Virus record (IMG/VR): IMGVR_UViG_2877982868_000014
Direction: 5' to 3' (one strand)
Length of the DNA: 64,000 bases
Origin: a virus
Lineage: Duplodnaviria > Heunggongvirae > Uroviricota > Caudoviricetes
Position 1 is the stretch's first letter. The number at the start of each line of letters is the position of its first letter. Shown here one piece after another: positions 27,001 through 33,000 of the stretch. The position numbers were made by a program.

Positions 27001-30000
27001 GCCGCGTCTCCAGACGACGAATACTGGCCTTGTCCACGTTGCAGTTCTTGATCACCGCCAGCAGTTGCAGGTTGTAAGTGACCGATGCCCCAAACGTGAA
27101 CGGCTCCGGCGCAGGAGGGACTAGGCAGTCAGCCAGCCATTCAGCGGGGATCGGCACCGGCTTCACAGGCACGTATTTCACAGACGGCCCGGCGCACCCG
27201 ATCAGCCACATCATCAGGAACAGGGGCAGAGGCCGCAGGCACTGCTGCCAGCGACCGGCGGACAACGCTCTGCTGCCCCTCGCTGTGCTGAATGTTCTGT
27301 TGTTTTTCATTCGTGGCCGCCTCACTGATTTGTGAAATGAGTTGCAGGGTGTGCTGCTGATTTGCCAGCACCTGACGCGCCTCATCCCGCTCACGCACAA
27401 GCACCTGATTATTGTCTTCAAGGCGCTGCGTCTTCTGGTGCATTCCCCATATCGCGGCAACCAGTACAGCGATAATCCCCAGCGCCGCCATGCACGCCCC
27501 GGCAATCAGGGCCGGTAAGGCATTATTCACCGCAGCCACAGGACACCCCGTAACAGCAGTACCGCACACAGCAGCGCTATCATGATCGGTCGCCAGAAGC
27601 GGTTCAGACTTTCGGCAAATCGTAGCGACATAACCATTCATCCGCCGAACGGCGGGCCTCAAGGCCGGGGAGCTTCACCCCCTTTGAATAAATCCAGCGG
27701 ATATACTGCTTACAGGACGCGGGCATCTGCCCGGCATTGATCAGGCGCAGAAGCGTGGAGTTGCGAAAGTTCGTTTCACCGGCCCAGAAGATCCACGAAG
27801 CCAGCGCCACCGTCTGACCACGGGTAAGCGGCACCTGAACACGCCGATCAATGGCCGCAAAGGCCCATTTCATGTCCTTTTCCAGTAGTTCCAGGCATTC
27901 TTCATCCGTCAGGGTCATACCCGGTTTCACATCCGGGCCGGTATGGCCGTAACAGATGGTGGGTGTACCGGTGGGATCGATATACGTGGAGTTTTCTTTC
28001 CCTTCCCAGTAACCGGTGTAATGCGTGGCAATCGTGAACGTCCCGGCACCGGCCAGAACAAGGGCAATCAGCTTTTTACGCAGTGGTGCGGGGAGTTTTG
28101 GCATTGTTACGCTGTCTCATGATGTTCTCTGAGTCAGCGTAACGGTGAAGGAAAGGCGGCAGGCTTTGCGGAATATCAGAAAAGTGGCGGTTGTGTTCTT
28201 GCCAGATGCAGACGGCGCTGTTCACGTATGACGGTATAAATCTGGGTTTCTGACATCCGGTAATGGCGGCGAAGGGATTCAATTTTCTCGCCCCGGTCCC
28301 AGCGCGAAAATATCTCATTGTTTCGCAGCTCGGCAAAGAGAGATTCCCCGACCGGCAGGTAATAACCCCGTCCGCCCATATAGGCTGCCTGAGCCGCAGC
28401 CACCTTGCGTGCCAGTTTGCCGGCCAGTACCGGCTCAATCCCCTGACGCTGAAGTTCTGCGCCGGTGACTTCAACCAGTTCTGACAGGGTCCGCGGCCAG
28501 TTCTTTTTGAGAACATCATCAGGGATGTCATCAAGGCGGTCGATAAGGGCGTGCAGTTGCTCACTGTCACCACCAAACATGCTCATCTGAGTTTCTGCCA
28601 TATCAGCCTCCGGTTCTCGCGTTCCCGGTAAGTTTAAAATAAAAATCCCGCGTTGTGGCGGGATTTGGGGTTAACGGGGAAGTGATTTTTCATACTGCCT
28701 GCAAACGGCGTCATACCCCATCAGCGTGCGTTCGGGCATTCCCATCGCGGCCAGCATTTTGCGGCGGTGCCATCGCTTGAGACGCTCCAGCACATCTGAG
28801 GCCAGGGCGGGGTGTTGCTCCAGCCACTGCCAGTTTGCCACACCTTCGCCGCCGTTTTGCGCGGCCGTCTGCGATTTCACCCAGCGGTTAAGGGCGGTTT
28901 CCGCACCATCAGAGATAAAGCCCTGCCGGTGCATCACCTTCCAGATGGCGCGAATTTTAGCGGTCACCGTACCCGGTTTTAAGGCCCGGTTAACCGGGTT
29001 CTGACGCACTTTAAAACCGCGTTTTTTGAAAACATCCAGCACGCGGGATAACTCATCCGGTGACATATCCCGGCAGCTGGTTTTGCCGGTGACCGCCAGT
29101 AGTACGGATGTGTAGGTTTCATCATCCAGGGCAAGCTCGCGTTTTGCCACATGAATGGCAGATATCAGTTTCCCTCTCATGCTGTATCAACACTCCTGCG
29201 GATATGATAGGTATTATTTTCCCGATCGAGCTGAACCCGATACTCCGGAGGAATCACAAAAATATTAAAACCATCATCAGTTTTTATTCTTGAGTAGCAT
29301 TCCCCCTTATGATATCTGGCCAGTGCATTAATCAGAGAAGTCGCAGCCTGCCCAATCAGGTATTTTTTATGAAAAATACTGATAACTTTCCGGCACAGCC
29401 ATCGTGTAATGACGAATGCACCGAAAAAGGATGTGATATATAAATACCAGAACAACTGCGAACTACTGTCCATTATCTTTCTCCTTATTCAGTCTTCTGC
29501 GGCATTCGGCACAGTCATCAGGGCTTTCAAATGTATCCGGCTCGCGATTATGAGCCAGATATAACCACCGTCCACATATACTGATATTTTCGCCTGTTTT
29601 AAAAAAATGATGCTTCCTGGCCATTAGTGGCCGCGCCCATCCAGCGGGTAGACTATTCATTTGCTTTATCCTCCATGCTGGACAGAATCATATGTATTAA
29701 TGTCGGGCGTGGAGATATACGCATTTCATTAAGCGTCTGAAGGGCAGCAACAGCTGCCTGTTTATCGGTGCCTTTGGCAATTTCAGCAAGAGAATGCACA
29801 ATCCATAATGGGCTTAACGCTACGGCTGAATGCAGAATCATGTCATCCATAATAATTTCTGGCATATCCCGTTTGTCACATTCTTTATCCATAAAAGAAA
29901 CGATTTTTTCTGCATCTTCCGGTTTCATGCCTCCGGCGATGAGAATTTTACGATATTCATAAGACGATCTTAATTCAATACTCATCATTCACCTGCCTGT

Positions 30001-33000
30001 TTAATCAGTTTCCAGTGCTTTGCTACGGGCAACAGCCTCACACTCAAAAAATACCGACTCCGGCACACGCTCCTTTAATTCACGAACAAGAAAATCATTA
30101 ACGAGTTCATGACGTCTTATATTTCTTTCCTTTTCCTCCTGGCGCAATACAGCAAGGCGGTATTCAACAGTCCGGCGTTGTTTCTGAAAGACAGCCAGTG
30201 CTTTTCTGGCAGAGTTACGCAATGTATCATCGCCACAGGGTTCGTATTCAAGCTGAAATTTAATCTCTTCAATGGTTTCTTTTATTTTTGCCAGCAAGCT
30301 AAGACAGTCGCTGATTGTCTTCAGTTTTTCATTATCAATATAACTTCTCACGCATTCACCTCCCGTCATTCCGGTAAAGCTGAAATATGGCACCAGTGCG
30401 TCACCTGTCCGTCCTCATCTTCAAGGCAGGCTCCGGTTTCTTCATCAATAAAAAAGCCTTCATACCCCATATGGCCGATGCGCAGTTCCTGTTGGTCACC
30501 ATACTGAACAATCAGCACGACAGCCTCCATATCAGGCGGGAAAGCATCATTCAGTGAATGCCAGGGATAACCGCGCAAATCCCCGAAATAAACACCGGTC
30601 AGCGTTCCGCCACAGACCGGCATTCCGACGGCACACACAAGGGGTTCATCTGATTCAACAAATAATGTCGTTATCATGGCATTAATTCCCGTAATACAAC
30701 ATCTTCGGCAGTCCGACGACGGTGATAAATAAAACTCACCGTGCCCTCGGATAATTCAAATTTCTCGCCGATTTCCCTAAAGGTAAGACGCCGTGGTGAT
30801 TCAGCATCCCGTAATTCACGAATAAGATGAACATCATCGTCAGGTATGCGGGTAAAAGGCAGTAATTCTCCGTATTTTTTCATGCTTACGCCAATATATC
30901 GCGCCCGATTGTGGACAGAATCCCGGTCTCGCCCCAGATATTCTCCTATTTGCTTACCGGTCATCGTCCTGGCATTTTTTCGGATAAATTTATCTTCATC
31001 AGGTTTAAATCTGAGGCGTTTGCATTTGAGCAACTCCGGGTAAGTACCGCGTAATAAAACAATCCGGTTATGTACACCCCAGAAACTTCTTTTTATCCTG
31101 ACAGCAATATCCTTAACCGGGGTGGATGGATAAAGCGCAATCAGCAGCGCATCTTCTTCAGGTGTCCATGCGCGAACATGAGCGGGTGCACGGCCTTTTC
31201 TCCCCATGGGTTGTAATTTCATCATGCATCACCCCCCGACTCGCTTTTCGGCAGCATAAAACTCATCAGACAGAATTTCGGTCATTTTCCGTTTTGCGGA
31301 ATCATCTTCGCACTGAAGGTAAATAACATCGTCAACGCAGAACCACTTCACGGGACCATGCAATATTGCTGAGAAGTCAATACCCAGCCAGAACAACAGT
31401 GCATCGGTTCTGGCATACGTGACGGGCGAATATTCACGCCACAGACTGTTAAGTTCGTCAGAGGCAACGCGCAGGGCTTTGGGAATACGTGATGTGCGCG
31501 GTGTGCAGCTCCAGCCATTCGACGCAGTCGGTTTTCGCCATAAGTCGCGATGAAAAGGATATTTGTCATCCATAAAGCGCAGCCCTTTAAAACAAAAGCC
31601 ACTGATACCGGATACAAATACCGACCGGCACGCAACATTCAGCACGGCCTCAAGGCGTTTTGCCTCATCCTTAACTTTCTGGCAGTCCTGCTGATATTTT
31701 TGCCACGCGGCCAGCGCGGAAGGGTTTGATGTTTTAAAGAACATTACGCCACCTCCGCAGATATCCCGGCAGGTGCAGCCGTCCGGTCAACAATCAGGTA
31801 ACGCAGAACATGTTCGGTGATATTCCAGCCGCTTAAACCGCAGATAATGACACCCAGGCGAATGTCGATATACGCCATCACAAACTGGGGCACGCCTTCT
31901 TTCATGGCCTGCTCATCAACTTCAACCACCACATAAACGGTTTCGCAGGTCAGTACGCCCTGAGCAAATTCCCACGCCATCGACGGAATATCATGCCCCT
32001 CAATCCACGGCAGGGATTTTCTGAAGCTGCACCACTGAACATCATCAGCCGCACCTTCCTGGCTGCATTTGCGACGAACCGGCTGCACCGGGCGGGGACG
32101 CGGAATATCATAAAAACCGTTACATTCCGTCAGCACCCCGGCATCGACCGCATCACGCAAAAAATAAACCATCGAGGATGGCGGCATATTCATTTTTTCA
32201 GCCAGAATGCCGCAGGTCAGACGCCCGTAAATACTCAGCCAGTTTTTAACCCCTTCAAGCACTTTTGCATCAATCATGAATTATTCCTCCGTCAGCGCCA
32301 CATATTCAGAATGTTTAATTTCCTGGCATTCTTCAGGAATACACCCTTTTATTTCCCTGCCATAAGCGCCTACTTTAAACACCACGCACAGGGCATCACG
32401 GGAGAGCGACGGGGTCCACCAGGAGTCCGTGTTAAACATGGAGGGGATTCTCATTACCCCCAGCTTTTCACAGAGCCAGACAAGGAAATCAGGACGCTTT
32501 CTTAACTCGCGTTCAGCGGCTTCAATCATTGCGGCAATCGCCGGTCCTTCAGGGCATGACTCATCAGGTCTGGCAATAAAGCACGGTCCGTCCCCGATAA
32601 AAGCCACATCATCGCGCTTACGCCAGCCCGCAGGCAGAGCACCAGAAAAATAAAACTCACTGATTACGTCCATGGCAAACGGCTTTAAGCGCAATCCGGC
32701 AGCGCCTGTATTTTTCAGTAATGCCCGAAGAATACTGTTGCGTAGCGGTAAAACAGTCTGTTGATATTTGGTGAAATATTTATTTGTCTGCACACGGTCT
32801 AATTTGAAATAAAAATATGCCATATATCCTGTTCCTTATTTTCAGTTTACAGGCGCAGGCAGTCCCCTGACGCGAGCGCCATACTTAAAACGATGTGATA
32901 TTTAAAGATTTAATGCGGTGTTATTTATTCAGTCCGGCGTCCTGTTCAAAAGGCTCGACATAAAAACTTTCAGCGCCTTTATTCACCTTAATACCGGCAA

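What the first reader, a model, noticed from the sequence alone, without database searches (positions are those of the whole stretch)
29177..32823. Nine-gene uncharacterised early block between gemA and gam in the Mu-like prophage
Nine tightly coupled minus-strand genes (65-183 aa) have no recognisable homolog among known Mu functions. They include a TM-anchored peptide, a Cys-rich mini-protein, a dual-HTH DNA-binding protein (30674..31225) and two wHTH-like or novel 177/180 aa proteins. In Mu-type phages this semi-essential early region is where host-takeover and anti-defence functions cluster. This is the largest unexplained coding block in the window and the best place to look for an undescribed phage-host interaction module.
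Basis: partly seen in the sequence, partly recalled or inferred. Interest (0 to 1): 0.6.

Follow-up and report, generated by a model that had tools for sequence, protein, structure and literature searches.

The report
Variable early genes of Mu-like prophage
The nine small genes are real and function-unknown, but they are the familiar, shuffled "semi-essential" early region of a Mu-like prophage common in E. coli O157:H7, not a single new phage-host module.

Summary
Nine tightly packed minus-strand genes lie between gam and gemA, and all are under purifying selection (median dN/dS 0.09-0.36). The interpretation needs correcting.

- **Mu counterparts exist.** g8 is Mu gp11 (67% identity, Pfam Gp11_C). 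g7 is Mu gp12 (53%). g6 contains a Mu gp9-like unit. g9 and g3 have homologs in the Mu relative SfMu.
- **Nothing here is new sequence.** All nine fall in existing PHROG families of unknown function. Their exact sequences are already on hundreds of public contigs, mostly as "hypothetical protein". The block is found in 232 of 5,426 complete E. coli genomes.
- **It is a mosaic, not a module.** In 33 related loci, the gam-gemA interval shows 18 colinear architectures drawn from 25 gene families. gp11 is in all 33 loci and gp12 in 32.

New details:
- g8 has an N-terminal winged helix.
- g7 gives a confident model with no fold relative in the PDB.
- g6 has three helix-turn-helix (HTH) units, not two.
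- g5 is a strongly conserved, very acidic DUF551-like protein.
- g1 has an invariant hydrophobic N-terminus and two C-terminal alleles.
- A conserved hairpin-containing element sits just downstream of gam.

No biochemical function is established for any gene. Interest is low to moderate.

The parts
32281..32823 (-). g9, 180 aa. DUF5420-like protein occupying the variable slot directly after gam.
   Evidence: phrog_2260 at 6e-75. 40% identity (E 4e-43) to SfMu ORF11, which RefSeq labels 'DUF5420 family protein' and which sits in the same position. Its own Pfam DUF5420 score is only 12.2 bits against a cut-off of 26. The slot carries at least 3 allele classes or is empty in related loci. Only 14 homolog clusters were found, all E. 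coli or Salmonella.
31744..32277 (-). g8, 177 aa. Ortholog of Mu gp11: N-terminal winged helix, disordered linker, C-terminal Gp11_C domain.
31229..31744 (-). g7, 171 aa. Ortholog of Mu gp12: alpha/beta protein with no solved structural relative.
30674..31225 (-). g6, 183 aa. Basic (pI 10.1) DNA-binding-type protein with three tandem HTH-like repeats. Repeats 2-3 correspond to Mu gp9.
   Evidence: phrog_323 'transcriptional regulator, D5-like' at 2e-58. Sub-threshold Pfam HTH hits fall in each third: Myb at 19-31, HTH_11 at 80-106, Sigma70_r4 at 145-169. Repeat self-similarity gives z 3.7 and 2.7. 32% identity to Mu gp9. Sources name it 'AsnC family' or 'DNA-binding protein'. Two allele classes exist, about 95% and about 72% identical to the window copy.
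30366..30677 (-). g5, 103 aa. Very acidic, DUF551-like small protein and the most constrained gene of the block.
   Evidence: pI 4.05, with 18 D/E against 2 K/R. The acidity is kept in relatives down to 30% identity. dN/dS is 0.09 with dS up to 1.6. It is 81-83% identical in loci where gp11 is about 62% and gp12 about 50%. Only 15 representatives appear among 1.84 billion proteins. DUF551 is hit weakly by 2 of 7 family members, best E 0.025. UniRef names the exact sequence 'DUF551 domain-containing protein'.
30001..30351 (-). g4, 116 aa (130 aa if started at GTG 30393). Predicted helical or coiled-coil protein.
   Evidence: phrog_6158 at 4e-56. The start at 30351 is supported by the SD GGGAGGTGA and by RefSeq. 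39-41% identity to proteins of Aeromonas phage AsXd-1 and Escherichia phages Fraca and SaltyDalty; in Fraca the homolog sits next to xis/int. PDB sequence hits are only coiled-coil designs. Present in 11 of 33 loci.
29653..29988 (-). g3, 110-111 aa. Acidic protein of unknown function.
   Evidence: phrog_1988 at 6e-45. 34% identity to SfMu ORF14 and 43-45% to Citrobacter-type prophage proteins. The SfMu paper lists ORF14 as absent from Mu and D108. Present in 23 of 33 loci.
29463..29660 (-). g2, 65 aa. Small, possibly zinc-binding protein (H18, C29, C50-x-x-C53).
   Evidence: phrog_2358 at 4e-34. 35-64% identical homologs occur in unrelated Klebsiella, Pantoea, Pseudomonas and T1-like phages, next to DNA methyltransferase, ParB-like or RusA genes. 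C29 and C53 are invariant in a 4-sequence alignment. Zinc binding is an inference.
29177..29473 (-). g1, 98 aa. Protein with a nearly invariant hydrophobic N-terminus (residues 7-23) and a dimorphic C-terminal domain.
32850..32890 (-). Conserved non-coding element in the gam-g9 gap: TTTTAAGTATGGCGC...GCGTCAGGGGACTGC...GCGCCTG, with a predicted hairpin at 32852-32880.
   Evidence: It is present in Mu, SfMu, the Yersinia and Citrobacter relatives and the IMG/VR loci examined where this junction is held, whichever gene follows. The consensus hairpin has 10 pairs, with one compensatory C:G to U:A change in 4 of 12 sequences. There is no U-tract. The single-sequence fold z-score is -0.53. No Rfam match. 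Its function is unknown.
32921..33451 (-). gam (upstream flank marker).
   Evidence: 57% identity to Mu Gam. RefSeq annotates it as 'host-nuclease inhibitor Gam family protein'.
28671..29180 (-). gemA / gp16 family (downstream flank marker), followed by a terminator-like hairpin at 28643-28666.
   Evidence: 43% identity to Mu GemA. RefSeq annotates it as 'gp16 family protein'.

Best explanation
The block is the distal, variable half of the semi-essential early (SE) region of a Mu-like transposable prophage of E. coli O157:H7. The exact g7 sequence carries an ECO57 UniProt identifier, which points to the Sp18 type.

Its position suggests the nine genes are co-transcribed with ner, A, B, kil and gam. 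The candidate promoter is an early-promoter-like site near 38.2 kb. A terminator-like hairpin lies just past gemA. This transcription unit is inferred from position and not shown. If it holds, the proteins would be made in the first minutes of lytic growth.

The block is not one machine. It is a colinear string of independently exchangeable accessory cassettes:
- **Stable head.** A DUF5420-like slot (g9), gp11 (g8), gp12 (g7), and usually a three-HTH gp9-like DNA-binding protein (g6).
- **Changeable tail.** g5 to g1, which come and go between related prophages. g2 and g4 also have relatives in unrelated phages.

I infer that each protein acts alone as a small modulator of DNA or host proteins. 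None of this is shown.
- g6 binds DNA.
- g8 uses a winged helix to bind nucleic acid or a partner protein.
- g5 is an acidic DUF551-type domain that binds a conserved, basic host or DNA-binding target.
- g1 is membrane-tethered, with a polymorphic cytoplasmic domain.

The shared purpose would be to tune replication by transposition, host takeover or superinfection behaviour. None is expected to be essential.
For: **Identity and context**
- gam, gemA, mor, B and A flank the block in Mu order.
- The block matches 232 of 5,426 E. coli genomes.
- The exact g7 sequence is named 'Mu prophage protein', A0A0H3JK01_ECO57.
- Sp18 is described as an intact Mu-like prophage in PMC2669165.

**Possible operon**
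- All genes are on one strand, with overlaps or short gaps and SD motifs.
- Promoter-like and terminator-like sites in the region are no more frequent than in shuffled sequence (11 against 14.0 expected; 16 against 11.8). A terminator-like hairpin follows gemA, and a 10/12 promoter match lies at 38236-38264.

**Real genes**
- All nine have PHROG hits and median dN/dS of 0.09-0.36.

**Mu counterparts**
- gp11, gp12 and gp9-like. SfMu ORF11 and ORF14.

**Mosaic**
- 18 architectures and 25 gene families in 33 loci, always colinear.
- Allele swaps occur even between O157:H7 strains.
- GC is 0.47 against 0.57 in the late genes, and lowest (0.40-0.42) in g4, g3 and g1.
- Homologs of g2, g4 and g6 lie in early regions of P2-like, lambdoid and T1-like phages.

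**Literature**
- The SE region is described as poorly conserved small genes of uncharacterised function (PMC8705779; PMC3820752).

**Per-protein features**
-.
Against: - No function was demonstrated for any of the nine.
- Structure search gave only a generic winged helix for g8 and nothing for g7.
- The winged helix of g8 is net acidic by my count from the sequence, so DNA binding is uncertain.
- g9-g8-g7-g6 keep a constant order and are nearly always present. They could work together as a sub-module, which the 'independent cassettes' view would miss.
- Co-transcription from the early promoter is inferred from gene order and consensus scans, not from RNA data.
- The comparison loci are mostly close relatives from E. 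coli and Salmonella. The architecture counts are not from an unbiased sample.
Confidence: 0.75

Rival explanations
1. The head of the block (g9, g8, g7, perhaps g6) is a conserved functional sub-module that works with Gam on DNA ends or on replicative transposition. It might be the classical, unmapped 'arm' (amplified replication of Mu) function. I recall from the older Mu literature that arm lies between gam and lig/gem.
For: - gp11 is present in all 33 loci that hold gam and gemA, and gp12 in 32.
- Their order directly after gam is fixed from Mu to the Citrobacter prophages.
- A conserved non-coding element precedes them in the loci examined.
- g8 has a nucleic-acid-type winged helix.
- g6 is a basic protein with three HTH units.
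Against: - The g9 slot is empty or holds alleles only 23-40% identical in many loci, and g6 is absent from Mu at this position.
- No interaction data exist.
- g9 and g7 are not demonstrably related. The hhalign E of 0.011 weakens to 0.11 with deeper alignments, and hmmsearch finds nothing.
- The mapping of arm comes from memory and could not be checked in the paper library.
Confidence: 0.2
2. One or more of the cassettes are anti-defence proteins. The best candidate is g5, a small, highly acidic protein that could mimic DNA or block a restriction or other nucleic-acid-targeting defence enzyme, in the manner of Ocr or ArdA.
For: - g5 has pI 4.05 and a net charge of about -16 over 103 aa.
- The acidity is kept in relatives down to 30% identity.
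- Purifying selection is strong (dN/dS 0.09).
- The gene lies among early genes and is AT-richer than the late region.
- DUF551 is described as a portable domain found in phage early proteins with acidic C-terminal domains (PMC10834534).
Against: - There is no homology to any known anti-defence protein.
- Acidity alone is weak evidence.
- The DUF551 assignment is itself borderline, and DUF551 has no known function.
Confidence: 0.12
3. The nine genes form a single, co-dependent phage-host interaction module.
For: The genes are tightly coupled on one strand and lie between two conserved markers. The full nine-gene set is kept at 98.7-98.8% identity in many O157:H7 genomes.
Against: - There are 18 different gene combinations among 33 related loci. 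g5, g4, g3, g2 and g1 are each present in only 11-23 of them.
- g2, g4 and g6 relatives occur singly in unrelated phages.
- Conservation within O157:H7 is explained by clonal descent.
Confidence: 0.03
4. The block is a prophage-encoded defence or superinfection-exclusion locus that benefits the lysogen. g1, for example, could be a membrane-anchored exclusion protein with a diversifying C-terminal domain.
For: - g1 has an invariant hydrophobic N-terminus and two C-terminal alleles about 50% identical, with sharp boundaries.
- Low-level early-promoter transcription through the SE genes has been reported in Mu lysogens (PMC3820752).
Against: - There are no PADLOC hits for any of the nine.
- The genes lie in the repressor-controlled early operon, not behind their own promoter.
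- g1's median dN/dS is 0.29, which is not positive selection.
- The TM prediction is borderline.
Confidence: 0.08

Closest known systems
Semi-essential early (SE/SEE) region of bacteriophage Mu, genes gp11-gp15 between gam and gemA
   Same: - Same position and strand relative to A, B, kil, gam, gemA and mor.
- Orthologs of gp11 (67% identity) and gp12 (53%) are present.
- A gp9-like DNA-binding protein is present.
- The same conserved non-coding element follows gam.
- Functions are unknown in both phages.
   Different: - Mu has 4-5 genes here (gp11, gp12, gp13, gp14 and the antisense gp15). This prophage has nine.
- It lacks gp13, gp14 and gp15.
- It adds g9, g5, g4, g3, g2 and g1.
- The gp9-like protein has gained a third HTH repeat and sits after gp12 instead of before gam.
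Shigella phage SfMu early region (ORF11 DUF5420 protein, ORF12 gp11 homolog, ORF14)
   Same: - SfMu ORF11 is 40% identical to g9 and sits in the same slot after gam.
- ORF14 is 34% identical to g3.
- gp11 and gp12 homologs follow in the same order.
   Different: - SfMu keeps Mu-type gp13, gp14 and gp15 homologs.
- It lacks g6, g5, g4, g2 and g1.
- Its authors considered ORF11 and ORF14 unique to SfMu.
exo-xis / Ea region of lambdoid phages (for example Ea22 and its DUF551-bearing variants), as an analogy of kind
   Same: - It is an early-transcribed, non-essential, mosaic stretch of small genes with portable domains and acidic C-terminal domains.
- DUF551 occurs there and is the closest family to g5.
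   Different: - It belongs to an unrelated phage type with different gene families.
- Ea22 has measured pro-lysogenic effects, whereas nothing is measured here.
- The g5 match to DUF551 is below Pfam's threshold.

Membership tests
Mu-type semi-essential early region | Lies between the transposition genes A/B and the Mor/C regulators of a transposable phage, on the early strand, and contains gam and gemA. | tested here: met
   Minus-strand order is A (35808-37898), B (34804-35736), kil-like, gam, the nine genes, gemA, mor.
Mu-type semi-essential early region | Short, poorly conserved genes of unknown function that vary between related phages. | tested here: met
   The genes are 65-183 aa. Related loci show 18 architectures and 25 families. 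All PHROG hits are 'unknown function' except g6.
Mu-type semi-essential early region | Dispensable for plaque formation but contributes to burst or host effects. | not testable with these tools
   This needs deletion mutants of the prophage.
Mu gp11 family (Pfam PF25754, Gp11_C) - g8 | Match to the Gp11_C profile above the gathering score, and full-length similarity to Mu gp11. | tested here: met
   136.6 bits against a cut-off of 27. 67% identity over 177 aa.
Mu gp12 family (phrog_2314; homologs labelled PF26885) - g7 | Full-length similarity to Mu gp12. | tested here: met
   53% identity over 168 aa, E 2e-63. phrog_2314 at 9e-83. PF26885 is not in the local Pfam copy, so that model was not scored directly.
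DUF5420 (Pfam PF17457) - g9 | Score at or above the Pfam gathering threshold (26 bits). | tested here: not met
   12.2 bits, E 0.17. However, g9 is 40% identical (E 4e-43) to SfMu ORF11 and 38% to a Salmonella protein, both labelled DUF5420 by their sources. It is a divergent relative rather than a scored member.
DUF551 (Pfam PF04448) - g5 | Score at or above the Pfam gathering threshold. | tested here: not met
   The window protein gives no hit at E<=10. Two of 7 family members hit weakly, best E 0.025. UniRef nevertheless names the exact sequence 'DUF551 domain-containing protein'.
phrog_323 'transcriptional regulator, D5-like' / Mu gp9 - g6 | Profile match and HTH units. | tested here: met
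   phrog_323 at 2.3e-58 over residues 2-182. Mu gp9 at 32%, E 1e-8. Every Pfam HTH hit is below its gathering score; the best is Sigma70_r4 at 23.5 against 24.1.
Z-alpha (Z-DNA/Z-RNA binding) domain - g8 N-terminus | Winged-helix fold plus the conserved Asn/Tyr of helix 3 and Trp of the wing that contact Z-form nucleic acid. | tested here: inconclusive
   [not shown]
Known anti-phage defence systems (PADLOC-DB) | Significant match to any defence-system protein model. | tested here: not met
   No hit better than E 0.02 for any of the nine.

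The most novel reading that the evidence does not exclude
Two things could be true together.
- The gp11-gp12 pair (g8, g7), always present after gam and preceded by a conserved hairpin-containing element, would be a dedicated and still undescribed functional unit of Mu-family phages. Its job would be, for example, to act on DNA ends or on the replicative transposition machinery. g7 would represent a fold with no solved relative.
- g5 would be a DNA-mimic-type inhibitor of a conserved host nuclease or defence protein.
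Probability: 0.15. Interest if true: 0.55.

Novelty: new member of a known kind. Interest (0 to 1): 0.28.

Why it matters
The function of the Mu semi-essential region has been open for decades. Papers from 2013 and 2021 still call these genes uncharacterised.

This prophage offers a larger natural set of cassettes than Mu itself, in a pathogen lineage where it is common. The practical value of this work is a sharper target list:
- gp11 and gp12, the near-invariant core, one of them with an apparently unsolved fold;
- the highly constrained acidic protein g5;
- the dimorphic protein g1;
- the conserved non-coding element after gam.

Nothing found here changes current understanding. The block is an ordinary example of a known kind of region.

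Tried and rejected
1. **One-to-one mapping onto Mu early proteins.** Only g8, g7 and part of g6 map. kil, gam and gemA lie outside the block.
2. **Known defence, NCBIfam and solved-structure sequence searches.** Nothing useful came back.
3. **g9 and g7 as distant paralogs.** The first hhalign gave a full-length alignment at E 0.011, the best of 36 pairs. With deeper alignments it fell to E 0.11 and probability 0.5%, and hmmsearch found no cross-hits. I rejected this as unsupported. BFVD fold hits to unnamed viral proteins of 182-194 aa keep it alive as a lead, but I could not identify those proteins.
4. **g8 as a Z-alpha domain.** The fold matches, but MarR and ArsR match about as well, and the contact residues do not seem conserved.
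5. **Fold search of g7 against AFDB50.** That library was unavailable.
6. **Deep homology for g9 and g5.** Both families are tiny and confined to the Enterobacteriaceae, so no annotation could be transferred.
7. **RNA elements.** There is no Rfam match in the block. The gam-g9 gap hairpin is conserved but not thermodynamically unusual.
8. **Literature.** Searches found no study of these proteins: Mu gp11/gp12, 'arm', DUF5420, and the RefSeq accessions of six of the nine (g3, g5-g9).
9. **Pseudogene or chance-ORF reading.** Rejected on dN/dS and family hits.

Full report

Every one of the nine hits a PHROG family at E 4e-34 to 9e-106. Pairwise Nei-Gojobori estimates against alleles from related loci give median dN/dS of 0.09-0.36, against 0.21 for gemA and 0.06 for gam. 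These are protein-coding genes under purifying selection, not pseudogenes or chance ORFs. The long antisense ORFs inside the block have no family hits.

One coordinate needs correcting. g4 probably starts at GTG 30351, giving 116 aa with the SD GGGAGGTGA, as in RefSeq, rather than at 30393.

**2. Where is it?**

The block occurs in 232 of 5,426 complete E. coli genomes. It is full-length in 136, at up to 98.8% identity. It also occurs inside Stx phages that carry an inserted Mu-like phage. All nine exact protein sequences are already in public collections, each on hundreds to at least 1,000 contigs. The exact g7 is UniProt A0A0H3JK01_ECO57, 'Mu prophage protein'. O157 Sakai's Mu-like prophage Sp18 is described as intact in PMC2669165. 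That this is an Sp18-type prophage is my inference from those facts.

Consensus scans find promoter-like and terminator-like sites in the region no more often than in shuffled sequence. The strongest promoter match (10/12) lies at 38236-38264, and a terminator-like hairpin lies just after gemA at 28643-28666. The genes therefore look like part of the long early operon. This is inferred, not shown.

**3. Relation to Mu.**

- g8 is the ortholog of Mu gp11 (67% identity over 177 aa; Pfam Gp11_C at 136.6 bits against a cut-off of 27).
- g7 is the ortholog of Mu gp12 (53%, E 2e-63).
- g6 residues 66-166 align to Mu gp9 (32%, E 1e-8).
- g9 is 40% identical (E 4e-43) to SfMu ORF11, a 'DUF5420 family protein' in the same slot directly after gam.
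- g3 is 34% identical to SfMu ORF14.

The SfMu authors listed ORF11 and ORF14 as absent from Mu and D108. g5, g4, g2 and g1 have no counterpart in Mu. None of these Mu or SfMu proteins has a known function. Two papers still describe the SE region as small, poorly conserved genes of uncharacterised function (PMC3820752; PMC8705779). The 'uncharacterised' part of the claim stands.

**4. One module or a mosaic?**

I fetched 55 IMG/VR loci and a Citrobacter braakii locus through the gp11 homolog. I added Mu, SfMu, a Yersinia Mu-like phage and E. coli M7638. Among the 33 loci that contain both gam and gemA, the interval shows 18 different architectures built from 25 gene families. The order is always the same.

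| Gene | Loci with it (of 33) |
|---|---|
| gp11 (g8) | 33 |
| gp12 (g7) | 32 |
| g6 | 30 (two allele classes, about 95% and about 72%) |
| g9 slot | 27 (alleles from 23% to 99% identity) |
| g3 | 23 |
| g5 | 19 |
| g2 | 14 |
| g1 | 14 |
| g4 | 11 |

The tail genes are sometimes replaced by Mu-type gp13 and gp14.

Relatives of g2, g4 and g6 occur singly in early regions of unrelated phages. These include a Klebsiella phage (next to DNA methyltransferases), T1-like Sf11, the lambdoid phage Fraca (next to xis/int) and a P2-like Citrobacter phage. This is the signature of independently exchanged accessory cassettes. It argues strongly against a single co-dependent nine-gene module.

**5. What the individual proteins look like.**

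- **g6.** This is a basic protein (pI 10.1) with three tandem HTH-like repeats (z 3.7 and 2.7 against shuffles). Sub-threshold Pfam hits fall in each third: Myb, HTH_11 and Sigma70_r4. It matches phrog_323 'transcriptional regulator, D5-like' at 2e-58. Mu gp9 corresponds to repeats 2-3.
- **g5.** This is the most distinctive. It has pI 4.05, with 18 acidic against 2 basic residues. The acidity is kept in relatives down to 30% identity. dN/dS is 0.09 with dS up to 1.6. It is 81-83% identical in loci where gp11 is about 62% and gp12 about 50%. Only 15 representatives appear among 1.84 billion proteins. Its C-terminal W...L..P...VTHW..P pattern is DUF551-like. Two of 7 family members hit DUF551 weakly, best E 0.025. 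UniRef labels the exact sequence DUF551. DUF551 is a portable phage domain of unknown function.
- **g2.** It has H18, C29 and a CxxC, which suggests a small zinc-binding fold. This is an inference.
- **g1.** It has a hydrophobic N-terminus that is nearly invariant between two alleles about 50% identical overall. Its best 19-residue Kyte-Doolittle (KD19) hydrophobicity window scores 1.34, which is borderline for a TM helix.
- **g4.** It looks helical or coiled-coil.
- **g3.** It has no informative feature.
- **All nine.** PADLOC and NCBIfam give nothing.

**6. Mechanism I commit to.**

The block is the variable distal part of the Mu-type semi-essential early region. It is probably expressed with the transposition genes early in lytic growth. 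It consists of independent small modulators. I propose that:
- g6 binds DNA;
- g8 uses its winged helix to bind nucleic acid or a partner protein;
- g5 binds a conserved basic target through its acidic surface;
- g1 acts at the inner membrane.

The identity and architecture are shown. The per-protein activities are inferred, and individually I rate each at or below even odds.

The main rival is that gp11 and gp12, with the preceding slot and element, form a conserved sub-module acting with Gam. This might be the classical 'arm' function, which I recall mapping between gam and lig/gem. I could not verify that mapping in the paper library.

**7. Something noticed at the edge of the block.**

The 97-nt gap between gam and g9 contains a roughly 40-nt element, TTTTAAnTATGGCG(C/T)..GCGTCAGGGGACTGC..(G/A)CGCCTG. 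It is conserved in Mu, SfMu, the Yersinia and Citrobacter relatives and the IMG/VR loci examined where this junction is held, whichever gene follows. It is far better conserved than the flanking coding DNA.

It can form a 10-pair hairpin. One compensatory C:G to U:A change appears in one clade. It has no U-tract and is not thermodynamically unusual. It may be a processing or stability site, a protein-binding site, a promoter element or a recombination linker. I did not resolve this.

**8. Novelty and verdict.**

The kind of region is well known. The sequences, family assignments and 'hypothetical' annotations are already public. Nothing found is surprising to a Mu specialist.

The value added is:
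- the corrected homology map;
- the demonstration that the block is a colinear mosaic with a gp11/gp12 core;
- a short list of the most testable parts: g5, g7, g1 and the element after gam.

I rate it 'new member of a known kind' with low-to-moderate interest (0.28).

Noticed in passing
window 32850-32890 (minus strand), gap between gam and g9; also Mu L001 about 6355-6410: A non-coding element of about 40 nt with a predicted hairpin (GGCGC...GCGCC, one compensatory pair change). It is conserved across Mu, SfMu, Yersinia and Citrobacter Mu-like phages and dozens of IMG/VR contigs, whichever gene follows. It has no U-tract and no Rfam match.
   Followed up: partly
[not shown]
   Followed up: partly
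[not shown]
   Followed up: partly
window 34030-34311 (minus strand): A 93-aa protein between B and gam hits phrog_1518 'host nuclease inhibitor' at 3.8e-43. The prophage may therefore carry a second nuclease-inhibitor-type gene besides Gam.
   Followed up: no
window 33463-33783 and 33761-34033 (minus strand): Two adjacent small genes upstream of gam begin with similar N-termini (MSKVRVIFEFKHV... and MSKVVRIIFEYKEHV...). They may be tandem paralogs. They hit different PHROGs of unknown function (phrog_2230 and phrog_4107).
   Followed up: no
window 28602-28670, between gemA and mor: In Mu, gemA and mor overlap by 4 nt. Here they are separated by about 70 nt that contain a strong terminator-like hairpin (28643-28666, followed by TTATTTT). 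mor may therefore be transcribed differently from Mu.
   Followed up: no
window 43753-43869 (minus strand): An Rfam ALIL pseudoknot (121.5 bits), the frameshift signal of an IS3-family insertion sequence, lies in the host or lambdoid flank outside the Mu-like prophage.
   Followed up: no
window about 39309: The right end of the Mu-like prophage. From here on, the sequence matches O157:H7 chromosome and a lambdoid prophage (yehQ, btsS, tail genes). In other strains this stretch is continuous, with no Mu-like prophage at this site. That fits insertion by transposition at a strain-specific site.
   Followed up: partly
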